DNA of 64,000 bases. Source: Escherichia phage vB_Eco_mar004NP2. The notes below the pieces were generated by a model. It searched no databases. It saw only the letters and a program-made list of their open reading frames with translations, and had not been told where the DNA came from. Positions within the stretch are counted from its first letter, which is position 1, and each line of letters starts with the position of its first letter. The DNA lies in sequence record NC_048205.1. One strand, 5' to 3'. Of the stretch, positions 52,630 to 64,000 are shown piece after piece. A program made the position numbers and the translations under genes.

Positions 52630-53162
52630 TATTCTGCATGTCTCGGTGCACAATACCTGTACCGAGACTCAAATACAAACTCTCGTTGACAGATAGCTAA
52701 ATGTATGTTATCATAACTCTATGAGTTAATAGAATTAACCATTTAGAGTTGCCACACAGAAGGTGTGGTGGTTCAGTAATTTAAAATTACTAACTTGTAG
52801 CGGAGGATACGGAGCGACAGGACAAGTTAATAAGTAATTTAATATAAATTGCTAGAAACATCACGAGACCTTCTGGCGGGGGCAAAGCTCTATATGAGAA
52901 CCCTGGGGGATCTTATATTTAAAATAAAAGTAAAACTTTTGACCATATAATTTACATTCAAGATGATACACCTGTTGCCGCTCATCTGCTAGGATGGCAC
53001 AACACTTTCTTCTAGACTCCTAAGTTTCTAGGAAAACTCTTACACTCTAGGGCAGTTTCTCTCCAACGTTACATATCCTAGGCCGGTTTAATACAGGGCG
53101 GTTATTGGGAGGGCGGTTATTTCTAGAAGACATTTTTCCAAAACACATTTCCAGAAATTACT

Positions 53163-53764
53163 GTCGGATTCGCACATTGTGTTTCTAGAAATTTATGGTC
53201 GGATTTGCACAATTGCCTAAGTTTTCATGGACACATAATCTCCTGAAAATGGCAGCATTATTTCGGGCCGAAGGCCCATGATTGCCTGAGTTTTTAGAGC
53301 CACAAGAATTTTCACTTGTCAAGCTATTTTGCCACCTTTAGCAAATAAAATTTTACTTTATCTCCACTAATCTCAAATTAACCCAAATCTTCTCAACTCT
53401 TCCCCCAAAAACGCAGCAAATCAGGCGTTGCACGCCACCCATGCTGCTCCTCCAGTTTCTCCACTTATTTTCTCTCGCTCTCTCATCTTCTCCTCAAACC
53501 TATACAATCACACACCCTCCAATCGAAGTCACAAAAATCTTGTCGGATTCGCACATCTTAATCCTAGAAAAACCGTGTCGGATTTGCACATATCCCACAG
53601 GATTCGAACGCAGTTCGAGATTGCTGGAGTTTTTGGGAAAATTCATTGTCGGATTTGCACACTATAAAAATTTTTGGGGTCGGATTTGCACACTACCAAA
53701 AATTGTCGGATTCGCACATACACGCCCGCGCGTAATCCATGGTGGCAAATGTCGGATTTGCACA
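53163..53764. repeat. array of 8 dispersed direct repeats (T/G)GTCGGATT(C/T)GCACA
   Basis: Copies at 53163, 53198, 53541, 53576, 53647, 53678, 53704, 53750 with irregular spacing; iteron-like. Confidence 0.8.
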
Positions 53765-53766
53765 AA

Positions 53767-54000
53767 AGCGCAGGGCAATTGCCCTGCGCTAAATACGAAT
53801 GATAATGAGAATCATTCGTATTTAAAAAGCGGAATAAGAATGATAATAGTTCTCATTTAGAAAGTGAAATGAGAATCAATCTCATTTAAGAAAGGGAATG
53901 AGAACTATTCAAAAAATGAAATGATTCTCATTTAAAAAATGGAATGATTATCGGTTAGATAGTGAAATGCGAATGATAATGATTCTCATTTAAGAATGGA
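53767..54000. repeat. cluster of palindromic repeats (GCGCAGGGCAATTGCCCTGCGC and repeated AATGAGAATCATTCTCATT-type units)
   Basis: Perfect 22-bp palindrome at 53767-53788, then at least 6 copies of an inverted-repeat unit; related copy near 54320. Confidence 0.75.
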
Positions 54001-54083
54001 AGCGAGAAACACTATTATTTAAGTTACCCACAGACTTATTAACAGCACGATTTGATTTGACAGAATCCTAGCCATTTTGAGGC

Positions 54084-54128
54084 GTTATCAACAGACTTAT
54101 CCACAGCTTATCCTACTGTATAAATATA
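54084..54128. promoter_or_regulatory. DnaA-box cluster and left arm of inverted repeat
   Basis: TTATCCACA at 54097-54105 plus near-match TTATCAACA; segment is reverse complement of 57608-57649. Confidence 0.6.
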
Positions 54129-54389
54129 CAGTATTCCTACGCAGTGAATAATTCTAATATAGCGTTAAAACGTCCTAAATCGCATTCTAACGCGCTTAAT
54201 TTTGATGGGGATACTAAAACAAGGGCAAAATTGGAGGAGGCTTAAAAATTAGTTAGCTTGCTAACGATCACACAAGGCGACACGTAACACCCTAATCATT
54301 AGCAGGCTAACCATCACGGGCGCGGTTAAATGAGAATCACTCTCATTTGAGAATTGGGGGCACTCCCTGGTAGTTGCGCCCCGTTATTA

Positions 54390-54584
54390 TTAGTCTGGTA
54401 GTCGATGCGTGATCTTTTCCTCCTCCCCGTAGGAATCCACCAAATGCTGATAATAACCATCGTGATCATAAATCACTTTATCATACTCGCCACGCTCGAC
54501 CGCTTGTCGGTTTTCCGGCGTATCGGGCACGTAAAAAACATCAACCATTGTACTGATTTTGGTTACAACAATTTTATTGCTCAT
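54390..54584 (-). CDS. hypothetical protein (pre-early-region operon)
   Basis: Start at Met 54584 with AGGGG RBS; track ORF uses TTG at 54614. Confidence 0.45.
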   Translation of the reverse strand: MSNKIVVTKISTMVDVFYVPDTPENRQAVERGEYDKVIYDHDGYYQHLVDSYGEEEKITHRLPD

Positions 54585-54686
54585 AATAACCCCTAGTAAA
54601 TATATTTTTGCCAATAGTGGCGAACGTTATCGCCACCAGCGGAATCATTTGCAGCCTCAACATTACCCGCGAAAATATATATAATC

Positions 54687-55031
54687 TCATTGCGCCACCT
54701 TTCGAAACGCTGTTTCAATACTATCCGCAGTGGATTGAATATACGCGCCTTTCATTATCAGGCGCTCGGTGCATATCTTGCGAAAAATATTAATAAAATC
54801 ATCTTCATTTTCTGCAATTAACGCCTCACCCATGACCTGAACGTCGCAAGATGCAAAGGTCAAAAATTGAAACGCTAGTTCACGGGCAACGACCGCATTG
54901 ATTTTATAATGCGCCTTGCCTTCATAAATATTAATAACGCCCTTATAAGCTGGGGAAAGCTGATTTAAGTAGTTTGCTAGTAATGCCGGACGGCAATTAG
55001 CAACAAAACGATTGCCTTCATAAATTACCAT
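54687..55031 (-). CDS. hypothetical protein (pre-early-region operon)
   Basis: Start at Met 55031 with GGGGAG RBS. Confidence 0.5.
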   Translation of the reverse strand: MVIYEGNRFVANCRPALLANYLNQLSPAYKGVINIYEGKAHYKINAVVARELAFQFLTFASCDVQVMGEALIAENEDDFINIFRKICTERLIMKGAYIQSTADSIETAFRKVAQ

Positions 55032-55032
55032 T

Positions 55033-55245
55033 TTATAGCACTCCCCGAAACGCAGCGTAAAAGGTGGCAAAATGTTTAACTGTTTCAGCTATCACGTTGC
55101 CCCGTTTATCGAATTTTTTCTCGGTAACACGGAAGGCGTTTTTATTTCGCGCTACATATTCAATTTTACAATCTTCCCGCTCGAACGTGTTAACGTCCAC
55201 CAGCTTAAAGCCTTTTGAACGTGCAAGGGAAACGTTACGAATCAT
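55033..55245 (-). CDS. hypothetical protein (pre-early-region operon)
   Basis: AAGGAG RBS 7 nt upstream. Confidence 0.55.
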   Translation of the reverse strand: MIRNVSLARSKGFKLVDVNTFEREDCKIEYVARNKNAFRVTEKKFDKRGNVIAETVKHFATFYAAFRGVL

Positions 55246-55247
55246 TT

Positions 55248-55397
55248 TTATTCTCCTTTACTAGTCATGCAGCCCAGCAGATAAGAAAATACAGCGATAC
55301 CCGCACCAATAATAACCGCGTGAACGCCGAAAGCTATTGCAAAAAGTGATAAAATAGCGCCCAAGATACCTGCTAGAATAGCTCGAAAAATAACCAT
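55248..55397 (-). CDS. small membrane protein (49 aa)
   Basis: Unlisted hydrophobic ORF MVIFRAILAGILGAILSLFAIAF... with AGGAGG RBS. Confidence 0.4.
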   Translation of the reverse strand: MVIFRAILAGILGAILSLFAIAFGVHAVIIGAGIAVFSYLLGCMTSKGE

Positions 55398-55446
55398 TTG
55401 TGATAGCCTCCTAGTTATCGGGGGATATTATATCCCCCGTTATTAA

Positions 55447-55677
55447 TTACATTAAAACAATTTTTGCAGCTTGTTTTTTGGTGCAATGTTCCGCCTTCAG
55501 GGTATCCAGCAAAAAGCCAGCCGTTTGCTGATCGATTTTATCGGCGTTATATAGTTCCTGAATGGTATTATAGGTTTTAGCAATACCGAACTCCTGCACC
55601 ATTTCATAGATGACAGCACGATTAGATACCCAGCCTTGCGCGGTAAACAGATGACTAGCAGAAGAATAAGCAACCAT
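55447..55677 (-). CDS. hypothetical protein (pre-early-region operon)
   Basis: Start at Met 55677, GGAGG RBS 6 nt upstream. Confidence 0.5.
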   Translation of the reverse strand: MVAYSSASHLFTAQGWVSNRAVIYEMVQEFGIAKTYNTIQELYNADKIDQQTAGFLLDTLKAEHCTKKQAAKIVLM

Positions 55678-55783
55678 TTTAAGCCTCCAAATTTTTGGGA
55701 AAATTTTCAACCGTCCTTAAACGGTGTAAAGGCATTATAACAAAAAAGGCCACCAATTATGGCGACCTTTACAAAACTTTACA

Positions 55784-56278
55784 TTAAACTACTTGTAATG
55801 TTTCAATATTGAAACATCGTTTCAATTCGTCATGCAAAACAGCGTATTCATCCCATCGGGTACTATCAGGGATATAAACAAGCTGTTTTAGTCGGTTTGC
55901 GTATATTACCGCTTTATTTCCGATTATTTCAGCGCCACCATATTTAATAATTAATTTCATGACGGAATTAATAGGATCGCCGCCGTTTACATATGTGCCG
56001 GATTTACTTAATTGATAATGATAAAGGCTTGCATATACATTATCATTCTCATACCATTCGCCCGTTTCCTCATCTTCATAGCCATCGCTACCAAAACGAG
56101 AAGCATTATCAACAGCCATTTCATGAGCGAAAGCGTCGAGATCCGTACCAGCAGGAACAAAATATTCCTCAGTATTCCCTTCACCGCAATAGCCAGTATG
56201 ACAATCGACCAAAATGATCATATCATGTTTAGCCTTGCTCACTTCCCCTAGCGAAAACCCATATTTTTCCTCAGCCAT
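55784..56278 (-). CDS. hypothetical protein (pre-early-region operon)
   Basis: 164 aa, AGGAGG RBS. Confidence 0.6.
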   Translation of the reverse strand: MAEEKYGFSLGEVSKAKHDMIILVDCHTGYCGEGNTEEYFVPAGTDLDAFAHEMAVDNASRFGSDGYEDEETGEWYENDNVYASLYHYQLSKSGTYVNGGDPINSVMKLIIKYGGAEIIGNKAVIYANRLKQLVYIPDSTRWDEYAVLHDELKRCFNIETLQVV

Positions 56279-56343
56279 TTATTAGCCTCCTATTAATTAA
56301 TAAGGGAATAGTAAAGCGGGGAAACAATCCCCGCTAAATATTA

Positions 56344-57336
56344 TTACTCGCTTTCGGTGCTAGTGGTAAAAGTAGAAATATCGATACCTTTCACCATTTC
56401 ATCAATCATTTCAGCGATGTTAAAACTTTGCACCATTTCTAGCATTGCCGCTTCCATAGCTGCGCCTGCTACCGCTTTCGCTTTCTGGTTATTCGGGGCG
56501 TACTGGTCAACCGCTACGCTCAGCAGGTTAGCAATAACTACCCGACCAATCGGCGTATCAATATAACCTTTAATCATAAACGGCGCTTTTTTAGCCGCTA
56601 CTTTCGTGATTTGAGTCAATGCAATTTTGCCAGCTTCCAGTTTTGCAGCATTTACAACAGCGGATTTATTAGCGGCAACGATATTAGCGATCTTGGTCAT
56701 GGTATTATTTCCTTTGTTTTCAGTAGTTTGAGTGTTAACGCTTTGAGTGTTAGAATTTACAGCATGTTTTTCCGTGTTGTCAATAGGCTGATCTTCCTCC
56801 TTCCAGAAAGAAAAGCCCGCGCTTTCAATATCCCCATCATATACATAAGGGTACACTTCCGACGGTAACAAAAAATTACCGTTATCATCAAAGGCCATTA
56901 CAGCCGCGAAACGATACCCGTCACAATCCGACCGATTCCAGCCAACTGATAAATAACGCCAAAATGAATCAAGAAAATTTTCAATATCATAAAGATCATT
57001 GGGGTTGGCTTCATAATTTTCTATTGAAAAAACTTCTAAGCCTGCCCCAGTATCATAGGCTTTTACTGTGCTACCTTTTACGATTATGAAATCAGTATCC
57101 GGCCCTCGACTAGTGAGCAATTGATAATCTTGATTATATAAAACAAGCGTTGCCCCTTGTTTATATAACGGTAGAAAACTATTCATATCATAGGCATCGA
57201 AATCACCAAAAAAGTTTTGGTGAATAGTTTCAGCCTTGTTAATAAAATGTTTAATGCTGGTTGTTCTGCTACCGTCCAGCAGGTTACGCAGCGCACCTTT
57301 TAAGACGGTTGCGTTATCTGGTTTATATAGCCTCAT
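56344..57336 (-). CDS. hypothetical protein (pre-early-region operon)
   Basis: 330 aa, GAGGGAGG RBS; first gene of minus-strand operon. Confidence 0.6.
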   Translation of the reverse strand: MRLYKPDNATVLKGALRNLLDGSRTTSIKHFINKAETIHQNFFGDFDAYDMNSFLPLYKQGATLVLYNQDYQLLTSRGPDTDFIIVKGSTVKAYDTGAGLEVFSIENYEANPNDLYDIENFLDSFWRYLSVGWNRSDCDGYRFAAVMAFDDNGNFLLPSEVYPYVYDGDIESAGFSFWKEEDQPIDNTEKHAVNSNTQSVNTQTTENKGNNTMTKIANIVAANKSAVVNAAKLEAGKIALTQITKVAAKKAPFMIKGYIDTPIGRVVIANLLSVAVDQYAPNNQKAKAVAGAAMEAAMLEMVQSFNIAEMIDEMVKGIDISTFTTSTESE

Positions 57337-57607
57337 TTGTTGGCCTCCCTCGTTAATCGGTGAGTGAATGATAAAGGCAATTTTCTAGCATAGGCAAATA
57401 TTATTTTACCTTTTTATTTTCCTTGCCTAGCGCCTAGTTTTATGCTAACCGCGCAGCGGTACAGTAAAGAGCAAAACACGGTGAAGCCACCAGGGCGACG
57501 GGTGAAGGCTTCACTTTAATATTACCCCACCGCATTTAGCTCGTTAGAAAGCGTTTTAGGCCGCCTAAAATTGATTGCAGTTGTTAACACTACCTTTTTA
57601 CCCTGTA

Positions 57608-57710
57608 TATTTATACAGTAGGATAACATGTGGATAAGTCTGTGGATAAGTCCTTATATCGTCGCCTATCGTGTCAAATCATTTTGTGCTGTTAATAAAC
57701 TTGTGGATAA
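57608..57710. promoter_or_regulatory. DnaA-box cluster and right arm of inverted repeat
   Basis: TGTGGATAA at 57629, 57641, 57702; CTGTATATTTATACAGTAGGATAA mirrors 54.1 kb copy. Confidence 0.6.
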
Positions 57711-57993
57711 CTTAAATGATAGTGGTTCTCACTTAGGACGATAGTTTCTTATAGTTATTATTTCTATCGGTTACGATTTCTTATAATTATTATTTCTCAT
57801 TAATTTATAAGTATATTATATATCATGAAATAGTTAGTTGGCTAATGAGATTTTCCGTGATTAATAGTCTGCTAACAGTTCCGGCTGTTACAATCCACCA
57901 GCATGATTATCATCCTAGCAACTATTAGTCTGCTATCTTTCCGATGCATACTAACAAATAAAAGTCAATTAATTTATTTCATAAAATAAGTAG

Positions 57994-58069
57994 TTATCCA
58001 CTGGAAAATAAAAGTCAAGTGGATAACTAGGAAAATTTCATTTTTGCTTTTGGGGATAAGTTATCAACA
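57994..58069. promoter_or_regulatory. additional DnaA-box-like sites
   Basis: TTATCCACT, AGTGGATAA, TTATCAACA near-consensus boxes. Confidence 0.45.
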
Positions 58070-58482
58070 AGGCTAGAATGCGCCTAAAACGCCCTATAAC
58101 GCGATGAAGTTTTTAGCCATGCCATTGCATTGCCTACCCTCGTTTATCGCTACCACGAGCTTTTTAGTTTTTGTCAAGTAGGGCAAGGCAAATATAAATG
58201 AAAAAATTACTTGCCAACCTGCTGGGTTTTATGGTATTCGCGCGCCCGTTTCCTTTAATTTTAGTGCGCCGCGCCCAGGTCGCCGCACGGTGTCCGGTGG
58301 CATTTTGTCTTTACGTTTCTTTACAAAAATAAGGTTGCGCCATTTTTACTATTTGCTATTATTTATCTCGTAGGGCGGCAATGACGAACTACACGGCGGG
58401 AAGTTTACCGCCGCGCTCTTTAAAAATTGGGTACATCTTAAAGTCTATCGGCGGTAAACTTATATTATAAGGAATCGCAGAT

Positions 58483-58686
58483 ATGAAACAAACTTTATTG
58501 ATCACTGGTAAACCAGCTAAAAAATTAGATGGTACTACTAAAAAATTGTTGACAATAGCCCAGCAATCCGTAAAATACCGATTTGCTCAGTACAAGAAAG
58601 GCCGCCAGCAGGGTTTAGAAATGATCTGGCGTAATATTATGATCGACCTGAAAGAAAATCATAAAAAACTGCAAAAAACAGTTTGA
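58483..58686 (+). CDS. hypothetical basic protein
   Basis: 67-aa ORF with AAGGAA RBS. Confidence 0.5.
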   Translation: MKQTLLITGKPAKKLDGTTKKLLTIAQQSVKYRFAQYKKGRQQGLEMIWRNIMIDLKENHKKLQKTV

Positions 58687-58916
58687 CACCCTAGCCGATA
58701 GGCTTTAAGATGTACCCAGTTCGATGAGAGCGATAACTTGATACAATTTGACGGTTAGGTGATTCCCCATAAATCATCCTGCCCCCTAACTGGGATATAG
58801 CAGCCTGCGTGGAGTTCCTTAAATTGATTATAGCGGTGAGCGGATTGTTGCTTATTACCTGCTACTTTCTAGCAGGTAATGCGGAACAATCCCCTAAATA
58901 ACTTGGAGTTTATACT

Positions 58917-59168
58917 ATGCAAAACGTTATTACCGCGCCTAAAATTGGTCAATCCGTTTTTATTCCTTTCGTTACTAAAACGGATGAACTAACCGGAAAA
59001 GCCGAACGTATTAAAGGTGCGGCGCTTATGCCGTTTGATACAATCGACGCGGTATACGCTGAAAATGAACGTAGTAACAACGGCAAAACCGTTTTTAGCG
59101 TTCGCGTTAAATCCGGCGACGTTGTAAAGGTTGTACAGCGTAACGAAAAATGGGAAGCTGTAGCGTAA
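58917..59168 (+). CDS. hypothetical protein
   Basis: TGGAGTTTAT RBS context; hairpin follows. Confidence 0.55.
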   Translation: MQNVITAPKIGQSVFIPFVTKTDELTGKAERIKGAALMPFDTIDAVYAENERSNNGKTVFSVRVKSGDVVKVVQRNEKWEAVA

Positions 59169-59264
59169 TAGTGTTACTTTTATATCCCCCAGTAGTTCGG
59201 GGGATATAACGATTAACATTATGTTAATCTTATCCCTTAAATTAAACTAATAGGAGTTTTTACC

Positions 59265-59672
59265 ATGACTAACGTTAAAACCGCAAAATTTGCTTGGAAT
59301 GAAGAAAACACTCAAAAAGCTGTTTCTATGTACCAGCAGTTAATTAATGAAAACGGTTTAGATTTCGCAAATAGCGACGGTTTAAAAGAGATTGCAAAAG
59401 CAGTGGGCGCGTCTTCTCCCGTGTCTGTTCGCTCAAAATTGACCAGCGCAAAAGCGTATCAGAAAAGCGATAAGCCTCGCAAAGTTGGCGGCGGTAGCTC
59501 AATCCGCAAAGCTCACTATGTACGCGTTATCGCTAAACATGCTATTGATTCCGGCATTATTAAAGACGCCGACGATCTGGCAAGTCTGGAAAGTGCAAAA
59601 CTTGAAACGCTGGACGCCGTAGCGCAACTGTTAGGCGTTGCCGATGAAGTAAAACAGGCCGCAGGTGAATAA
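59265..59672 (+). CDS. hypothetical protein
   Basis: AGGAGTTTTT RBS context. Confidence 0.55.
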   Translation: MTNVKTAKFAWNEENTQKAVSMYQQLINENGLDFANSDGLKEIAKAVGASSPVSVRSKLTSAKAYQKSDKPRKVGGGSSIRKAHYVRVIAKHAIDSGIIKDADDLASLESAKLETLDAVAQLLGVADEVKQAAGE

Positions 59673-59728
59673 ATTTAATTAGTGGGGAATATTCCCCACT
59701 ATAATTTCCCTTTGACTGGAGTTTTAAA

Positions 59729-59926
59729 ATGATCTTTTACCCCACTGAATCGTTAATTTTAGGCTTATTTATTATGGCGGCCTCGTTATTATTCGCTTAT
59801 TTTCAAAATGATTTAGACTCATATTATTTTAAACGTAAGTCTAAATTGGCAAAGCGTTTAGGTCTGATTTGTTTTATTGCCGCCATTGCTTGTGGTGTTA
59901 GTTCTAGCCTTATGCCTTTAAATTAA
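59729..59926 (+). CDS. hypothetical membrane protein
   Basis: Two TM helices; TGGAGTTTTA RBS. Confidence 0.5.
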   Translation: MIFYPTESLILGLFIMAASLLFAYFQNDLDSYYFKRKSKLAKRLGLICFIAAIACGVSSSLMPLN

Positions 59927-60023
59927 TGTTGCAAATTATAACGCCTATTATTCAAGGCGTTATATTTGGCAATATTTGCCAATAACAAACGTTTTTTAAT
60001 CCCTTTAATGGAGTTTTATTAAT

Positions 60024-61688
60024 ATGATTATTTCCGCAGAAAAACAAACCGTTATCCTGAAAATGGCCGCTGACTTTAATTTCTATGGTAAACGTCTGCG
60101 CGCTACTAAACTGGAGGTCTGCGACGATATATCAAAAGCGGTCTACGATACAACAAAACACTCGACCGCTATCTGCGACTGGTTGGAAGCAAATAAACCA
60201 GCTAAACCGAAAGCGGCGAAAGTAGCAAAAGCCATTAAAAACGATGAGCGTCCAGAAGCGGCGGGGATTGTTTCTAGCACGGTTGAGCAATGGGAAGTAA
60301 AGCAGGGTAAACGCTTTATTATTACGTCGATTCAGAATAATACTTTCCCGCATAAAAACTTTTTAGCCTCATTGGAGCAATTTGCTAAATATATCGGCGC
60401 TGATTTGCTGGTTAGCAAGTTTATTTATAACAAAAACGGTTTTCAAAATGGCGAGGGTGCAGAAGGAATAAAATATGATTCCGCATTTGACAAATATATC
60501 TGCAATAAAAACGTGTTTTTAAATAACCGCCGTTTTGCTTTCATGGCTGAAATTAACGTTTTGCCAACCGCAGATTATCCGCTTTCTGGATTCGCTGAAA
60601 CTGCAACGGCGCTTAATCTGGAAGGTCTGGCAATTGGTCACGCTAAAATTACCGCTGAAAGCGTGCCAGCTTTAAAAGGTGAAGTAGTGCGCCGTATGTA
60701 CTCAACCGGAACGGCAACGCTCAAAAACTACATTCAGCAGAAAGCAGGACAAAAGGCCGAGGCGCTGCATAACTTCGGTGCGCTAATTGTCGAGTTCGAC
60801 GAGGACGGGGAATTTTTTGTACGCCAGCTCGAAACGATGGACGAAAGCGGGGTATTTTATGATCTGAATGTGTGCGCTACTCCTGCCGGATGCTATGAGA
60901 CATCGGGGCATGTTTTAGGCTTGCAATACGGCGATATTCACGCAGAAAAACTAGATGATGATTGTGCCGTTGCGTCATGGGCTGGCGAAAATAGCTTGCT
61001 TGATATTCTCAAGCCTAAATATCAGTTTATCCATGACGTGCATGATTTTACATCACGCAACCATCACAACCGCGCATCCGGTGTATTCCTAGCAAAACAA
61101 TACGCCGCCGGACGTGATAAGGTATTAGATGATCTTATCGATACGGGGCGCGTGCTGGAATCAATGGAACGTGATTTCTCGCAAACAATCATTGTTGAAT
61201 CTAATCACGATTTGGCGCTATCCCGTTGGCTTGATGATCGTAATGCTAACATTAAAGACGATCCAGCAAACGCGGAACTATATCACCGCCTAAATGCCGC
61301 GATTTATGGAGCTATTGCAGAAAAAGACGATACTTTCAACGTGCTAGATTATGCGCTGCGCAAGGTTGCAGGTTGTGAGTTTAACGCCATTTTTCTAACT
61401 ACTGACCAATCTTTCAAGATTGCAGGCATTGAATGCGGCGTACACGGTCACAACGGCATTAACGGCAGCCGTGGCAATCCTAAACAATTTAAGAAATTGG
61501 GCAAATTAAACACCGGACACACTCACACCGCCAGCATTTATGGCGGCGTGTATACCGCTGGCGTAGCTGGTAGTCTGGACATGGGTTACAACGTTGGCGC
61601 GTCAAGCTGGACGCAAACGCATTTAATTACCTATGCAAACGGTCAGCGCACTTTGATTGACTTTAAAAACGGTAAATTCTTTGCGTAA
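60024..61688 (+). CDS. A1-like pre-early protein, calcineurin-like metallophosphoesterase
   Basis: 554 aa; GDIHAE, ESNHD, VHGHNG, GHTHTASIY phosphoesterase motifs; size matches T5 A1 (about 556 aa, from memory). Confidence 0.65.
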   Translation: MIISAEKQTVILKMAADFNFYGKRLRATKLEVCDDISKAVYDTTKHSTAICDWLEANKPAKPKAAKVAKAIKNDERPEAAGIVSSTVEQWEVKQGKRFIITSIQNNTFPHKNFLASLEQFAKYIGADLLVSKFIYNKNGFQNGEGAEGIKYDSAFDKYICNKNVFLNNRRFAFMAEINVLPTADYPLSGFAETATALNLEGLAIGHAKITAESVPALKGEVVRRMYSTGTATLKNYIQQKAGQKAEALHNFGALIVEFDEDGEFFVRQLETMDESGVFYDLNVCATPAGCYETSGHVLGLQYGDIHAEKLDDDCAVASWAGENSLLDILKPKYQFIHDVHDFTSRNHHNRASGVFLAKQYAAGRDKVLDDLIDTGRVLESMERDFSQTIIVESNHDLALSRWLDDRNANIKDDPANAELYHRLNAAIYGAIAEKDDTFNVLDYALRKVAGCEFNAIFLTTDQSFKIAGIECGVHGHNGINGSRGNPKQFKKLGKLNTGHTHTASIYGGVYTAGVAGSLDMGYNVGASSWTQTHLITYANGQRTLIDFKNGKFFA

Positions 61689-61744
61689 ATAATTAATCCC
61701 CTAGCGGCTTGAAATATAGCCGCTATTACAGGAGCTAAATTAGA

Positions 61745-62002
61745 ATGAAAGTTACATTACCCAAAACGCTAGACGAAAAAGCATTTATTTCACCGGATGA
61801 AATGGAATCCGATAAAGTTTACAGCTTCGGGCCTATTCTAGCCGCCAAAACTAATACTGATGGGATTATTACGGTCGATTATCGTGATAATGATATTGTA
61901 CCCTTTGACGATGATGGTGCTTTTTATGAGTGGCTAAGCGATAATAATTTACCCGTAAACGGTGAATTAACGCCGTACCAGATGCAGATTATTATCAAAT
62001 AA
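61745..62002 (+). CDS. hypothetical protein
   Basis: 85-aa ORF with AGGAG RBS. Confidence 0.5.
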   Translation: MKVTLPKTLDEKAFISPDEMESDKVYSFGPILAAKTNTDGIITVDYRDNDIVPFDDDGAFYEWLSDNNLPVNGELTPYQMQIIIK

Positions 62003-62040
62003 ATTAAATCCATTATTAAACTAATTGGAGTTTTATAAAC

Positions 62041-62433
62041 ATGAAAAAGCAAAATATTCCATTTGACCGCGCTCAATCCTCAATTGTTCTGGTTTATTCT
62101 AATGGTGAGCGTTACCACGTCGAGGCGGGGCACGTTATTGATGAATTGCTAGATTTCAATGACGCTTTGCAGGTTACAACATTTGCATATATGCAAGGCA
62201 AACTAACTAGCCATATTAAAGCAAAAGGCGTTTATGTTGACACGGTGAAACAAGAAACGATTATCATCGACGCAGTAAAATCCGGTCTAACCTTTGCAGT
62301 TGTCGCGCCTTGCCCCGCTTGCCTTGATGATCAATTGATTTCTGCAAAAGTATATACTTGTGCGGGGATTCGTTCCCATGTATCAGGTGAGGATGTTAGT
62401 TTTATCGCCGATGCGTTGGCTTATGGTCTTTAA
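62041..62433 (+). CDS. hypothetical pre-early protein (possibly A2-like)
   Basis: 130 aa next to A1-like gene; TGGAGTTTTA RBS; assignment by position and size only. Confidence 0.4.
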   Translation: MKKQNIPFDRAQSSIVLVYSNGERYHVEAGHVIDELLDFNDALQVTTFAYMQGKLTSHIKAKGVYVDTVKQETIIIDAVKSGLTFAVVAPCPACLDDQLISAKVYTCAGIRSHVSGEDVSFIADALAYGL

Positions 62434-62512
62434 TAGTTAATTTATTATTACCCGCTTATAAATAGCGGGTAATGCTGAATTAATCTAATCCCTTAAATGG
62501 AGAACGTAACAA

Positions 62513-63247
62513 ATGAATAAAGCTATCATGAATCTTTCCCGCAGCTTCCCGCATATTTCCCGCGTCATGATTTGGGATTTAGACGGCACTATCATTAATT
62601 CTTTCCATCGTGTAGCACCCTGCTTTGATAGCGAGGGCAATTTAGATTTAAATAAGTATAAAAATGAAGCGTGTAAACACCATTTAATAATGCAAGATAC
62701 TTTATTGCCATTGGTTGAATATATGCGCCAGTGCATGAATGACGCAAATACTTTAAACATTATTTGCACCGCTCGACTGATGAGTAAGTCGGACTATTAT
62801 TTCTTGCGTAAACAAGGGTTGCGCGGTCGTGGTAATAGTAATATCCGCGTATTTTCCCGCGATACACTACACAAATATTTTAAAGCTGATAAGGTTAGCG
62901 AAATATACCACAGCAAAGACGCAGTATATAAATCTTATTATTTTGAATTATTTAAACAGTTATATCCTAACGCTGATTTTACAATGATTGATGATCATAA
63001 AGGCGTGCTATCAGCGGCAGCGTCATACGGATTTAAAACGCTGGACGCACAAGCCGTTAATGATATTCTATCAATCGGCGTGGCATTGATAGGTGAAACC
63101 TTTATTGATGAATCTCTCGACGATGATAATGATTATCAATTCCTAGCTGACCGTTTAAAATTATGCTGGGAAGGTATGACCGAGGAAGAACGCGCAGAAT
63201 ATAGTTGCAGTCCTCAACAATATATTGAGAAATTAAAAGTTGCCTAA
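62513..63247 (+). CDS. dmp: HAD-family 5'-deoxyribonucleotidase (dmp-like)
   Basis: RVMIWDLDGTIIN HAD motif I; 244 aa; pre-early location. Confidence 0.6.
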   Translation: MNKAIMNLSRSFPHISRVMIWDLDGTIINSFHRVAPCFDSEGNLDLNKYKNEACKHHLIMQDTLLPLVEYMRQCMNDANTLNIICTARLMSKSDYYFLRKQGLRGRGNSNIRVFSRDTLHKYFKADKVSEIYHSKDAVYKSYYFELFKQLYPNADFTMIDDHKGVLSAAASYGFKTLDAQAVNDILSIGVALIGETFIDESLDDDNDYQFLADRLKLCWEGMTEEERAEYSCSPQQYIEKLKVA

Positions 63248-63399
63248 CAATTAAAGTTGAAATAGTCACGGTGTGTAATGATACCATGCCGTGACTATTA
63301 GCCTGCTAAGTACCGGGCGGTAATGAGACTCATTCTCATCTGGGGGGCCACTGGACACACCCACGCGTACGTAATCCAAAGAAATTGGCAAAAGTCAAA

Positions 63400-63645
63400 T
63401 TAGCGCATAGAAGGGTCATCAAACCTGTATTCTGGTCTGAACTCACGGAATCTCTTCCGCGACGCCCGAGATCCATCCGACCACTCCCGCTCAAACTCCG
63501 CACGTTTCTCGTCAAACTTCCGCTCCCTTTCCGCAATCTCCCGCGTCACTCCCGCAATATATTTACGATGCTTATTGATTGCCGCAGTCGTCCCGAAAAC
63601 TCCCGTGAGTATCCCGATAATAAAAGCAATTACAATACTAAACAT
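63400..63645 (-). CDS. hypothetical membrane/coiled-coil protein
   Basis: N-terminal TM helix, Arg/Glu-rich tail; GAGAGGG RBS. Confidence 0.5.
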   Translation of the reverse strand: MFSIVIAFIIGILTGVFGTTAAINKHRKYIAGVTREIAERERKFDEKRAEFEREWSDGSRASRKRFREFRPEYRFDDPSMR

Positions 63646-63832
63646 CTAATTCCCTCTCAATTTGCAGAATACGGGTACTATCACAGCGTTGAAGCTCTAC
63701 TAATTTTTCTAGTGCAAATTGTTGCTGCTTTACCTGGGCCTCTAGAGTTTTTAGGCGAACATACGCGGTATAAGAAACAATGAAAATTGCCCAGATTAAT
63801 ATTACTATTAATGTAGCTGCCACTTCCATCAT
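63638..63832 (-). CDS. hypothetical membrane/coiled-coil protein
   Basis: TM helix plus coiled coil; GGAGA RBS. Confidence 0.5.
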   Translation of the reverse strand: MMEVAATLIVILIWAIFIVSYTAYVRLKTLEAQVKQQQFALEKLVELQRCDSTRILQIERELDV

Positions 63833-64000
63833 TTACGTTTCTCCAGCAATAAAGTTTCAATTCTAGCTAAGTGATTATCTAAAATACATTGCCCAATAAT
63901 CACAATCCCTAATAGTGCAATAATTACCCATTCCATTAAATCCACCCCGCCATAGCTGCTAACCAAAAACCTACGAAAATAAAGAATAGGAGAGTTCCGA

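What the first reader, a model, noticed from the sequence alone, without database searches (positions are those of the whole stretch)
58880..62512. Conserved leader motif upstream of pre-early genes
The genes at 58917, 59265, 60024 (A1-like), 62041 and 62513 (dmp-like) are each preceded by a similar element, AATCCC(C/T)T(A/T)AAT or TAAACTAAT, then (A/T)GGAGTTTT(A/T) and the ATG. The genes are also separated by hairpins without strong T-runs. This suggests a shared translational or RNA-processing signal specific to this module.
Basis: seen in the sequence. Interest (0 to 1): 0.45.

Follow-up and report, generated by a model that had tools for sequence, protein, structure and literature searches.

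The report
Conserved leader box before T5 pre-early genes
Every gene of the first operon that this T5-like phage expresses is preceded by the same short C-rich box placed just upstream of a GGAG ribosome-binding site. The box is kept in distantly related phages, so it is probably a dedicated start-of-translation signal, but the factor that reads it is unknown.

Summary
The window is a T5-like phage, identical to Salmonella phage PMBT29 in this region. Positions 58880-62512 are the leftward pre-early (first-step-transfer) operon: 007, A2, 005, A1, 003, 002, dmp.

All seven cistrons, not only the five listed, carry the same layout: [A/T][A/T]TCCC[C/T]T[A/T]AA, then 6-27 nt, then GGAG (mostly GGAGTT), then ATG. 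Five of the seven junctions follow a stable hairpin that lacks a T-run.

- **Specificity:** TCCC plus a GGAG ribosome-binding site (Shine-Dalgarno, SD) occurs at 6/7 of these genes against 2/107 genes outside the terminal repeat (p = 7e-8).
- **Conservation:** a matrix trained only on Erwinia, Klebsiella and Proteus relatives picks out these leaders (p = 4.5e-5). In the whole Proteus phage 1 genome, the composite occurs only at four pre-early genes.
- **Strand and spacing:** the box lies on the coding strand and tracks the SD, with a spacing that is specific to each gene and conserved.
- **What it is not:** a promoter, a terminator, an Rfam family, a boxA or a 16S-complementary enhancer. Pairing with the SD is weak.

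Best reading, confidence 0.45: part of an extended, insulated translation-initiation region for each cistron. The trans-acting factor is unknown.

By-product: true rrn-type boxA elements sit in pre-early leaders across the family.

The parts
58549..58576 (+). Promoter-like site TTGACA-16-TAAAAT inside hdi. It corresponds in position to T5 promoter P-H22.
   Evidence: 11/12 match; T5 annotation (paper 10.64898/2026.04.02.716235 places P_H22 and P_D/E20 over hdi)
58683..58711 (+). Promoter-like site TTGACA-17-TAAGAT, in the position of T5 P-D/E20. It is the likely start of the seven-cistron transcript, which has a leader of about 200 nt.
58854..58880 (+). Hairpin ATTACCTGCTA-ctttc-TAGCAGGTAAT upstream of gene 007. 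It has no T-run.
   Evidence: stem variants in relatives (CCTGTTA/TAGCAGG, TCTGCTA/TAGCAGA)
58888..58899 (+). C-box AATCCCCTAAAT of gene 007. The SD GGAG is at 58905-58908 and the ATG at 58917.
59180..59229 (+). Two hairpins upstream of A2: 59180-59209 (TTATATCCCCC..GGGGGATATAA) and 59211-59229 (GATTAACAT..ATGTTAATC).
   Evidence: in relatives one stem position takes C-G, T-A, A-T and G-C
59231..59256 (+). A2 junction: C-box TATCCCTTAAAT (59231-59242), spacer TAAACTAAT (59243-59251), SD GGAG (59253-59256). The ATG is at 59265.
59680..59701 (+). Hairpin TAGTGGGGA-atat-TCCCCACTA upstream of gene 005.
   Evidence: TAGCGGGGA/TCCCCGCTA variants
59704..59721 (+). Gene 005 junction: C-box ATTTCCCTTTGA (59704-59715) and SD GGAG (59718-59721). 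The ATG is at 59729.
   Evidence: In relatives where the rest of this intergenic region is replaced by unrelated sequence, CTTCCCTTAAATCAGGAGTTTT is still present.
59937..59982 (+). Two hairpins upstream of A1: 59937-59964 and 59966-59982.
59998..60013 (+). A1 junction: C-box AATCCCTTTAAT (59998-60009) abutting SD GGAG (60010-60013). The ATG is at 60024.
   Evidence: ATCCCTTTA[AT][TA]GGAG is invariant in all but one of 27 distinct variants, while the 5' flank varies.
61695..61734 (+). Gene 003 junction: C-box AATCCCCTA (from 61695), then hairpin 61702-61725 lying between the box and SD GGAG (61731-61734). The ATG is at 61745.
   Evidence: The same box-hairpin-SD order is seen in Erwinia KEY, Klebsiella Roth37 and Vibrio D239.
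62006..62030 (+). Gene 002 junction: degenerate box AAATCCATTATT (62006-62017), spacer TAAACTAAT (62017-62025), SD GGAG (62027-62030). The ATG is at 62041. This junction has no hairpin.
   Evidence: most relatives have ATCCCTTA, ACCCCTTA or GCCCCTTA here
62447..62473 (+). Hairpin ATTACCCGCT-tataaat-AGCGGGTAAT upstream of dmp.
   Evidence: 10 pairs, 6 with changes on both sides, 96.7% of cells paired, 0/500 shuffles reach the covariation score
62487..62502 (+). dmp junction: C-box AATCCCTTAAAT (62487-62498) abutting SD GGAG (62499-62502). The ATG is at 62513.
56296..56309 (-). Right-arm copy ATTCCCTTATTAAT upstream of TAGGAGGCT (56284-56292) and the ATG at 56278.
55691..55704 (-). Right-arm copy ATTTTCCCAAAAAT upstream of TGGAGGCT (55682-55689) and the ATG at 55677. 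The same box is present at T5.012.
58395..58427 (+). Context rather than part of the box: hairpin GGCGG-gaagttta-CCGCC (58395-58412) followed by boxA CGCTCTTTAAAAAT (58414-58427), upstream of hdi.
   Evidence: identity to E. coli rrnB boxA elements

Best explanation
The C-box is the upstream half of an extended translation-initiation region that is repeated at each cistron of the pre-early operon(s).

Anatomy:
- A stable hairpin closes off the upstream cistron at five of the seven junctions.
- A short, A/U-rich tract follows that carries the invariant CC(C); local folding predicts it mostly but not consistently unpaired.
- After 6-27 nt comes a minimal four-base Shine-Dalgarno sequence (SD), GGAG, flanked by U so that pairing with 16S cannot extend.
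- The ATG follows.

Proposed mechanism (inferred, not shown):
- The hairpins insulate each start region from the neighbouring coding RNA. They probably also protect upstream 3' ends.
- The C-box tract acts as a sequence-specific docking or standby site for the 30S subunit or an associated protein. S1 is the obvious candidate.
- Each cistron of a long transcript can then recruit ribosomes independently and strongly in a cell still full of host mRNA.
- The spacing between box and SD, which is specific to each gene and conserved, sets relative output.

Shown here: existence, enrichment, strand and position rules, conservation, hairpin covariation.
Not shown: any effect on translation, or the identity of the factor that reads CCC.
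For: 1. Restricted to pre-early genes. TCCC plus a GGAG SD occurs at 6/7 left-arm genes, 3/9 other terminal-repeat genes and 2/107 other genes. Early genes use a different promoter-plus-leader unit.

2. Coding strand on both divergent arms. This argues for an RNA-level role.

3. Positioned relative to the SD rather than the upstream stop. The distance from box to GGAG is 5-17 nt, or the box and SD flank a hairpin. The distance is gene-specific and conserved across genera: A1 and dmp 6-8 nt, A2 and 002 mostly 11-17 nt. The distance to the upstream stop and hairpin varies freely.

4. Purifying selection. The box survives where the rest of the intergenic DNA has been replaced (005 and A1 junctions). 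It also survives in Erwinia KEY, Klebsiella Roth37, Proteus phage 1 and partly Vibrio D239, with A1 identity from 66% down to 34%.

5. Independent replication. A matrix built only from those other genera separates the window's leaders from controls (Mann-Whitney p = 4.5e-5). In the complete Proteus phage 1 genome, TTCCC..GGAG..ATG occurs at 4 pre-early starts and at none of the other GGAG-led ORF starts, of 68 in all.

6. Loss of the box and the GGAG SD together. In L037-L039, gene 003 has neither the CCC nor a GGAG SD.

7. The SD core is only GGAG, with non-complementary flanks (read from the sequence against the 16S 3' end). An auxiliary recruitment element is therefore plausible.

8. Local folding gives intermediate unpaired probabilities for the tract between hairpin and SD, roughly 0.2-0.9 per base, higher in the A/U part than at the C's. 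This is permissive rather than strong support.

9. From my own knowledge: intercistronic enhancers upstream of a short CUGGAG SD are known (E. coli atpE), and so are phage leader enhancers (T7 gene 10).
Against: - There are no functional data.
- Generic S1 or standby sites are A/U-rich and not sequence-specific, so the invariance of CCC is unexplained by this model.
- Complementarity of the boxes to E. coli 16S rRNA is no better than for shuffled boxes.
- Among close T5-like relatives, the 12-mers as a whole are no more conserved than the rest of these intergenic regions (identity 0.836 against 0.838). The argument therefore rests on distant relatives and on the replaced flanks.
- A few junctions in relatives lack a free C-box yet keep GGAG (A1 to 002 in L023 and L029).
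Confidence: 0.45

Rival explanations
1. The C-box plus GGAG is an operator for class-specific post-transcriptional shut-off of pre-early expression. A phage or host RNA-binding repressor (as with T4 RegA) or an endoribonuclease (as with T4 RegB cutting GGAG) would recognise the box and silence all pre-early cistrons together once the rest of the genome has entered.
For: - All seven cistrons use GGAG, against 33/107 genes elsewhere, and share a sequence-specific neighbour. This looks more like an operator than a generic enhancer.
- The T5 annotation states that A1 is required for shut-off of pre-early genes.
- T4 RegB sites are GGA(G) in early-gene SDs plus a flanking determinant (abstract of PMC1702504).
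- GGAG followed by UUU fits the RNase E preference for a uridine two nucleotides downstream of the cut (abstract of PMC5222698). The exact consensus is from my own knowledge.
Against: - The RegB determinant is A-rich and lies 3' of GGA. Here the 3' flank is U-rich and the conserved element lies 5'.
- The paper read attributes A1-dependent shut-off to dampened transcription from pre-early promoters.
Confidence: 0.2
2. The box is a weak anti-Shine-Dalgarno element acting in cis. UCC/CCC would pair with the GGA/GG of the SD, and in gene 003 this closes around the intervening hairpin. The effect would be to throttle translation of toxic pre-early proteins or make it condition-dependent.
For: - In partition-function folds, the box C's are the main upstream partners of the SD G's, with pair probabilities of 0.15-0.73.
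- The minimum box-to-SD gap is 5-6 nt, which is compatible with a hairpin loop.
- The box and SD flank a hairpin at gene 003 in four genera.
- An HNH gene inserted in relatives uses a perfect version, AATCCTCCAATTA..TAATTGGAGGATT.
- Several pre-early genes are toxic when cloned.
Against: - Only 2-3 base pairs are possible, and CUCC is never used in about 170 junction variants.
- The flanks of the box and of the SD do not covary. AATCCC, TATCCC and AGTCCC all occur with GGAGTTT, GGAGTTG or GGAGCTT.
- Changing C to A in silico lowers the SD opening energy by only 0.1-1.6 kcal/mol in six junctions.
- In Klebsiella Roth37, most boxes are AACCC, which cannot pair with the A or the last G of GGAG.
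Confidence: 0.12
3. The junctions are RNA-processing and stability modules. A host endonuclease such as RNase E would cut in the single-stranded box region, the upstream product would be protected by the 3' hairpin, and the polycistronic RNA would become monocistronic units, as RNase III does for T7 early RNA.
For: - Conserved, covarying hairpins without T-runs sit just upstream of a mostly single-stranded A/U-rich tract at five of seven junctions.
- From my own knowledge, this is the usual architecture of RNase E sites and of 3' stabilisers.
Against: - The box keeps register with the downstream SD, not with the hairpin.
- The 002 junction has a box but no hairpin, and the 003 junction has the box before the hairpin.
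- RNase E does not need a CCC.
- The stems are 7-11 bp, too short for RNase III.
- No transcript-end data were found.
Confidence: 0.1
4. The box is a degenerate boxA that binds NusB-NusE (S10). It would either re-load the antitermination complex or, as at suhB, couple Nus binding to translation control.
For: - UCCCUUUAA resembles GCUCUUUAA.
- Genuine boxA elements are present in the same region in every relative examined.
- In Proteus phage 1, one boxA is followed directly by AATCCCGTTAAAAT.
Against: - NusB-NusE reads boxA nucleotides 1-8 base-specifically (PMC3177189).
- The box differs at two of these positions: U or A in place of G, and C in place of U.
- It is conserved as CCC, distinct from the CUC of the true boxA elements in the same genomes.
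Confidence: 0.05
5. The repeats act at DNA level, or are historical. They would be junction linkers left by, or used for, modular gene exchange, or a protective or recognition site on first-step-transfer DNA, with no role in expression.
For: - Gene content changes exactly at these junctions: 003 is absent in some relatives, HNH genes are inserted, and intergenic blocks are replaced. The box marks the 5' edge of the conserved block.
- How first-step-transfer DNA escapes A1-dependent degradation is described as unknown.
Against: - A recombination linker need not be conserved between genera whose proteins are 34-66% identical, yet the box is.
- The box is always on the coding strand and always 5-17 nt (or one hairpin) from an SD, on both divergent arms.
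Confidence: 0.05

Closest known systems
Intercistronic translational enhancer upstream of E. coli atpE (named from my own knowledge)
   Same: It lies between cistrons of a long operon. It is an A/U-rich unstructured tract directly upstream of a short (A)CUGGAG Shine-Dalgarno sequence (SD). Many T5-like junctions read AACTGGAG.
   Different: It serves one gene rather than a whole gene class, it has no invariant CCC, and its function is experimentally shown, which this box's is not.
T7 gene 10 leader 'epsilon' enhancer UUAACUUUA (named from my own knowledge)
   Same: It is a phage leader element upstream of the SD. TAACTT and TAAACT occur in several junctions.
   Different: Epsilon is defined by complementarity to 16S nt 458-466. 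Here only 5-6 of its 9 bases match, and only in some junctions. The box's 16S complementarity is no better than shuffled controls.
T4 RegB/S1 target sites and RegA operators on T4 early mRNAs
   Same: They are class-specific signals overlapping the ribosome-binding sites of the earliest phage genes, and GGAG is the preferred SD (PMC1702504).
   Different: The RegB determinant is an A-rich run 3' of GGA. Here the conserved element is a C-box 5' of GGAG and the 3' flank is U-rich. No RegB or RegA homologue was identified.
boxA (NusB-NusE site) of rrn operons and lambdoid nut sites
   Same: The sequences resemble each other (CYCUUUAA), and true boxA elements lie in the same region.
   Different: The C-box fails two base-specifically read positions. 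It sits before each SD rather than once per leader.
RNase III sites between T7 early genes; T4-type promoter-early stem-loop cassettes (PeSL) (named from my own knowledge)
   Same: There is a hairpin at each junction of the host-polymerase-transcribed earliest genes, and the junctions coincide with sites of gene gain and loss.
   Different: The stems are 7-11 bp, too short for RNase III. No promoter-like site coincides with the box.
UCCC seed motifs of Staphylococcus aureus Rsa sRNAs (named from my own knowledge)
   Same: An unpaired UCCC is able to contact a G-rich SD.
   Different: Those act in trans on GGGA-type SDs. Here the element is in cis, the SD is GGAG, and pairing is at most 2-3 bp.

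Membership tests
Shine-Dalgarno ribosome-binding site | A purine-rich core complementary to the 16S 3' end, placed 5-12 nt upstream of the start codon | tested here: met
   GGAG lies 5-10 nt upstream of each of the seven ATGs; the 16S 3' end ...CACCTCCTTA was read
Upstream translational enhancer (atpE / T7 epsilon type) | Lies in the leader or intercistronic RNA just 5' of the SD and is predicted single-stranded | tested here: inconclusive
   Position met: the box lies 5-17 nt 5' of GGAG, or the two flank a hairpin. Accessibility is mixed: per-base unpaired probabilities are about 0.2-0.9 and as low as 0.2-0.4 at the C's in several junctions, and the 007 box pairs into an extended stem in the MFE fold.
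Upstream translational enhancer (atpE / T7 epsilon type) | Epsilon type only: complementarity to 16S rRNA nt 458-466 (UUAACUUUA) | tested here: not met
   Only partial TAACTT or TAAACT matches, and only in some junctions. The best 16S complementarity of each box is within the shuffled range.
Upstream translational enhancer (atpE / T7 epsilon type) | Raises translation of the downstream cistron | not testable with these tools
   Needs reporter fusions or toeprinting
boxA (NusB-NusE binding site) | The 8-nt core GCUCUUUA, read base-specifically | tested here: not met
   The C-box is (A/U)UCCCUU(U/A)A, with mismatches at G and at the first U. A separate element at 58414-58427 does meet the definition and matches the E. 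coli rrnB boxA elements.
Intrinsic (rho-independent) terminator | A G+C-rich hairpin followed immediately by a T-run | tested here: not met
   No + strand terminator-like site falls at any junction hairpin; the tails read tgcgga, cgatta, taattt, tttggc, ttacag and gctgaa
RNase III processing site (T7 early type) | About 20 bp or more of double-stranded stem | tested here: not met
   The core stems are 7-11 bp
T4 RegB target | GGA(G) in a single-stranded SD with an A-rich sequence immediately 3' | tested here: not met
   GGAG is present, but the 3' flank is TTT(T/A) in 5 of 7 junctions. The definition is taken from PMC1702504.
T4 RegB target | A RegB-family nuclease encoded by the phage | not tested
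   Only the eight operon proteins were scanned against Pfam
SD-sequestering hairpin (cis anti-SD, thermometer-like) | An upstream segment complementary to the SD that occludes it in the folded RNA, supported by covariation | tested here: inconclusive
   CC:GG pair probabilities are 0.15-0.73. The C-to-A change in SD opening energy is 0.1-1.6 kcal/mol. There is no covariation of the flanks.
Sigma-70 promoter | -35 and -10 hexamers at 16-18 bp spacing | tested here: not met
   No + strand promoter-like site overlaps any C-box. The sites found lie at 58549-58576 and 58683-58711.
Any curated RNA family (Rfam 15) | A covariance-model match at or near the gathering score | tested here: not met
   Only sub-threshold chance hits in 53000-64000, none at the junctions

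The most novel reading that the evidence does not exclude
The C-box plus GGAG pair is the operator of a dedicated post-transcriptional switch. A factor that reads UCCC next to a minimal Shine-Dalgarno sequence would either give pre-early mRNAs privileged access to ribosomes in the uninfected-state cell, or later shut the whole class off. The factor could be a host ribosome-associated protein or a phage pre-early or early protein or nuclease. This would work together with Nus/boxA-modified, translation-uncoupled transcription of the same operons, making T5's first-step programme a self-contained, rrn-like expression system.
Probability: 0.2. Interest if true: 0.7.

Novelty: new variant of a known kind. 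Interest (0 to 1): 0.5.

Why it matters
T5 injects 8% of its DNA, pauses, and must express a handful of pre-early proteins fast enough to destroy host DNA and resume injection. How these genes are expressed so efficiently, and then switched off as a class, is only partly understood.

A conserved, class-specific element next to every pre-early ribosome-binding site gives a concrete handle that can be mutated. It is small enough for reporter and phage-engineering tests, and it is present from Escherichia to Proteus and partly Vibrio phages.

The genuine rrn-type boxA elements in the same leaders add a testable proposal: that the pre-early programme borrows the host's ribosomal-RNA antitermination machinery.

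If the box proves to be a strong portable initiation element, it would also be useful for expression-cassette design.

Tried and rejected
- **Promoter reading of the box.** No sigma-70-like site overlaps it.
- **Terminator reading of the hairpins.** None has a T-run.
- **Known RNA families.** Nothing was found at the junctions.
- **Host homologue of the A1 leader.** There is no meaningful match in 5,426 E. coli genomes.
- **Exact ATCCCTTWAATGGAG in IMG/VR.** Outside T5-like contigs, almost none of the hits lie at a plausible gene start, so they are taken as chance matches. The leader is family-specific.
- **16S rRNA complementarity.** It is no better than shuffled boxes.
- **Extended pairing AAUCCC with GGAGUU.** It looked attractive (5 of 6 positions, and KEY AUAUCCC with GGAGUGU), but there is no consistent covariation across about 170 variants.
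- **The extra copy ATTCCCCATAAAT at 58762 in the 007 leader.** It is not conserved; relatives have cacttaccataat there.
- **The annotated 30-aa ORF 58809-58901 as an eighth cistron.** Relatives carry 2-nt and 4-nt indels inside it, so it is unlikely to be coding.
- **-1 frameshift heptamer C_CCT_TTA.** This was rejected because the box lies beyond stop codons in all frames and other copies do not fit the pattern.
- **tRNA-like or RNase P substrate (hairpin plus NCCA).** The distance from hairpin to CCC is too variable.
- **Literature.** No paper in the searchable library mentions this motif, or boxA in T5. Davison 2015 and the older T5 sequencing papers are not held, so prior description cannot be excluded.

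Full report
**What the region is**

Window 58400-63300 is 100% identical to Salmonella phage PMBT29 and 80-92% identical to several hundred T5-like phages. The rest of the window differs from PMBT29 by indels.

Comparison with annotated relatives and with T5 itself gives this gene order on the + strand:
- hdi, 58483-58686
- 007, start 58917
- A2, start 59265
- 005, start 59729
- A1, 60024-61688
- 003, start 61745
- 002, start 62041
- dmp, start 62513

This is the leftward arm of the terminal-repeat (first-step-transfer) pre-early region, drawn here in reverse orientation relative to T5. Two strong promoter-like sites, TTGACA-16-TAAAAT at 58549-58576 and TTGACA-17-TAAGAT at 58683-58711, sit where T5 has P-H22 and P-D/E20 (paper read). 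The seven genes from 007 to dmp therefore most likely form one transcript with a leader of about 200 nt.

**Check of the observation**

The two starts it omitted (59729, 61745) carry it too.

The common plan is [A/T][A/T]TCCC[C/T]T[A/T]AA, then 6-27 nt, then GGAG (GGAGTT in five), then 5-10 nt, then ATG. TAAACTAAT is not an alternative box. It is a spacer inserted between box and GGAG at A2 and 002.

The statistics are clear:
- The strict 11-mer occurs four times in 64 kb, all here.
- The 12-mer with one mismatch occurs 9 times against 2.6 expected.
- Among mapped gene starts, TCCC in the leader occurs in 6/7 against 11/116, TCCCTT in 4/7 against 1/116, and GGAGTT in 5/7 against 4/116.
- TCCC together with a GGAG ribosome-binding site (Shine-Dalgarno, SD) occurs in 6/7 left-arm genes, 3/9 other genes of the terminal repeat, and 2/107 genes elsewhere (p = 7e-8).

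Early genes in the window instead carry the T5 early promoter-plus-leader unit (tgtataat...cataaattgatgagagga).

**The hairpins**

Stable hairpins lie at five of the seven junctions, and one lies between box and SD at gene 003. None is followed by a T-run or scores as an intrinsic terminator.

They are maintained as structures. The dmp hairpin has changes on both sides at 6 of 10 pairs, with 96.7% of cells paired; no shuffle or slid register comes close. In the A2 hairpin, one stem position takes all four Watson-Crick pairs among relatives. Stems are 7-11 bp.

**Conservation**

T5 has the box at all seven orthologous junctions and at T5.012 on the other arm.
- Erwinia phage KEY (A1 66% identical) has it at six junctions plus one right-arm gene, and a TTCC variant at gene 003.
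- Klebsiella phage Roth37 (72%) has it, mostly as AACCC.
- Proteus phage 1 (42%) has it as TTCCC[C/T]T at four genes.
- Vibrio phage D239 (34%) has it in part.

A weight matrix trained only on the KEY, Roth37 and Proteus sites scores the window's seven leaders far above 116 control leaders (Mann-Whitney p = 4.5e-5). The best-scoring controls are the right-arm pre-early genes.

In the complete 102-kb Proteus phage 1 genome, the composite TTCCC..GGAG..ATG-ORF occurs at four starts. All four are pre-early, out of 68 GGAG-led ORF starts.

Among 38 close T5-like sequences, the boxes as a whole are not more conserved than the surrounding intergenic DNA (0.836 against 0.838; synonymous sites 0.742). 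The informative cases are those where the flank has been replaced and the box kept:
- The 005 junction exists in two unrelated versions that share only (T)TCCCTT..GGAGTT.
- The A1 junction has four different 5' flanks in front of an essentially invariant ATCCCTTTA[AT][TA]GGAG.

In one lineage, gene 003 has lost both the CCC and the GGAG SD together.

Outside T5-like contigs, almost none of the exact ATCCCTTWAATGGAG matches in IMG/VR lie at a plausible gene start, so they are taken as chance matches.

**Rules of position**

The box is always on the coding strand, on both divergent arms.

Its distance to GGAG is constrained to 5-17 nt, or the two flank a hairpin. The distance is characteristic of each gene across genera: A1 and dmp 6-8 nt, 005 6-8 nt, 007 8-13 nt, A2 and 002 mostly 11-17 nt. 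Its distance to the upstream stop or hairpin is free.

This ties the box to initiation at the downstream cistron rather than to the 3' end of the upstream one. It argues for an RNA-level role.

**What it is not**

- It is not a promoter or a terminator, and it is not a curated RNA family.
- It resembles boxA (UCCCUUUAA against GCUCUUUAA), but it fails two of the eight positions that NusB-NusE reads base-specifically. It is conserved as CCC alongside true CUC boxA elements in the same genomes.
- Its complementarity to E. coli 16S rRNA does not exceed that of shuffled boxes.
- Pairing with the SD is possible only through CC:GG, with or without U:A. Predicted pair probabilities are 0.15-0.73. Removing the C's in silico changes the SD opening energy by 0.1-1.6 kcal/mol in six junctions. 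The flanks do not covary. A cis anti-SD role is therefore weakly supported at best.

**Most likely mechanism**

I read each junction as an insulated, extended translation-initiation region.

The SD core is only GGAG, flanked by U on both sides in most junctions, so that 16S pairing cannot extend (sequence read). Upstream of it lies an A/U-rich tract, predicted partly unpaired, that carries the C-box. A hairpin separates this tract from the previous cistron.

The inferred function is independent, efficient recruitment of 30S subunits at every cistron of a long transcript, in a cell that still contains all its own mRNA. The box-to-SD spacing would tune each gene.

The step from 'conserved element next to the SD' to 'enhancer' is inference by analogy with the atpE intercistronic enhancer and the T7 gene 10 leader, both cited from my own knowledge. 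The invariance of CCC is not explained by generic S1 or standby binding and points to a specific reader that I could not identify. Confidence is 0.45.

**Rivals**

- **Class-specific operator for shut-off, confidence 0.2.** This would be RegA-like repression or RegB-like cleavage. It fits the uniform use of GGAG and the known A1-dependent shut-off of pre-early genes. No factor is known, however, and the RegB determinant differs.
- **Weak cis anti-SD, 0.12.**
- **Processing or stability module, 0.1.**
- **Degenerate boxA, 0.05.**
- **DNA-level or recombination linker, 0.05.**

Their evidence is given in the rival entries.

**By-product: boxA**

Genuine rrn-type boxA elements are a family-wide feature of pre-early leaders.

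- The window has CGCTCTTTAAAAAT at 58414-58427 after a GGCGG..CCGCC hairpin, upstream of hdi. It is the only exact match in 64 kb.
- It is conserved at this position in nearly all of the T5-like loci examined.
- A TTGCTCTTTAC lies on the other strand at 57464-57474, in the region upstream of the right arm.
- KEY, Roth37, D239 and Proteus phage 1 have one to five copies, mostly 15-25 nt after a -10-like hexamer.
- In the whole Proteus phage 1 genome, all five GCTCTTTAA[AC]AA matches fall within 1.1 kb of the pre-early promoter region.
- Three H8-like relatives carry TGCTCTTTAAC directly after the P-D/E20 -10.
- The E. coli rrnB leader and spacer boxA elements read TGCTCTTTAACAATTT and TGCTCTTTAAAAATCTGG. 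KEY's GCTCTTTAAAAATCTGG is identical over 17 nt.

This suggests Nus-factor antitermination of at least part of pre-early transcription. It would fit long junctions with hairpins and ribosome loading that is independent of the polymerase.

One caveat applies. In this window, the two strongest promoters lie downstream of the boxA, so only transcripts from a promoter further upstream would carry it. No paper in the searchable library connects T5 with boxA.

**Verdict**

The element is a family-specific, class-specific addition to the ribosome-binding sites of T5 pre-early genes. It is a new variant of a known kind of signal, and I found no description of it in the accessible literature. It is of moderate interest in itself, and of more interest together with the boxA elements.

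Noticed in passing
window 58395-58427 (+); also L003, L004, L006, L007, L059 and L008-L044: An rrn/lambda-type boxA, CGCTCTTTAAAAAT, follows a GGCGG..CCGCC hairpin upstream of hdi. It is the only exact boxA in the window. It is conserved in nearly all T5-like loci examined and in Erwinia, Klebsiella, Proteus and Vibrio relatives, usually 15-25 nt after a -10-like hexamer. In the complete Proteus phage 1 genome, all 5 matches cluster within 1.1 kb. KEY's copy equals the E. coli rrnB spacer boxA over 17 nt. This suggests Nus-dependent antitermination of pre-early transcription. No paper found links T5 and boxA.
   Followed up: partly
window 57464-57474 (-): A boxA-like TTGCTCTTTAC lies on the strand of the right-arm operon, about 130 nt upstream of the 011 homologue (ATG at 57336), and is conserved in most of the T5-like loci examined. 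It lies upstream of the promoter position annotated in T5, so whether it is transcribed is unclear.
   Followed up: partly
L026, L037, L039 (alignment of window 58690-58845): In H8-like relatives, the long structured leader after the P-D/E20 -10 is replaced by a short one that carries TGCTCTTTAAC or CGCTCTTTAACA at about +15. The window's leader has only a degenerate remnant (GATACAATTTGACGG).
   Followed up: partly
window 58718-58916 (+): The roughly 200-nt leader of gene 007 contains conserved hairpins. One shows compensatory changes among relatives (ggcac..gtgtc, ggtgc..gcatc, ggtac..gtgcc). It also has an invariant CCGCCCCCTAACTGGGATATAGCGGCC block that looks like a C-box plus pseudo-SD with no gene after it.
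   Followed up: no
window 58809-58901 (+): A 30-aa ORF annotated in PMBT29 overlaps the 007 hairpin and box. Relatives have 2-nt and 4-nt indels inside it, so it is probably not coding.
   Followed up: partly
window 62513 vs 62567 (+): PMBT29 annotates dmp from 62567 (226 aa). The box-plus-SD arrangement and T5.001 (244 aa) support the start at 62513.
   Followed up: yes
L010 near 6739, L026 near 4488, L027 near 6745: A gene inserted between A1 and 002 in some relatives (169 aa in L026; an HNH endonuclease is annotated in this region in several related records) has its GGAGGA SD buried in a perfect 13-bp hairpin, AATCCTCCAATTA..TAATTGGAGGATT. This is a strong form of the pairing that the C-box could only make weakly.
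   Followed up: no
window 57600-58060: There is a cluster of DnaA-box-like sequences (TGTGGATAA / TTATCCAC) and inverted repeats between the two pre-early arms. It corresponds to the repeat regions with DnaA boxes that Davison describes for T5-like phages.
   Followed up: no
window about 900-52000, many sites: Early genes are each preceded by a near-identical promoter-plus-leader unit (ttgc..tgtataatat..cataaattgatgagagga..ATG). It differs from the pre-early leaders and gives a clean contrast between the two gene classes.
   Followed up: no
[not shown]
   Followed up: partly
L182 (E. coli rrnB) 16S 3' end vs window 62490-62498: The sequence immediately after the mature 16S 3' end is CCTTAAAGAAG. 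It shares CCTTAAA with the boxes TCCCTTAAAT. This may well be chance: a 7-mer in an A/T-rich context.
   Followed up: no
window 1-54000 vs PP554579.1: The window is identical to PMBT29 from about 55000 onward but is offset from it by indels of 560-573 bp and 41 bp further left. The window therefore comes from a different, closely related genome or assembly.
   Followed up: no
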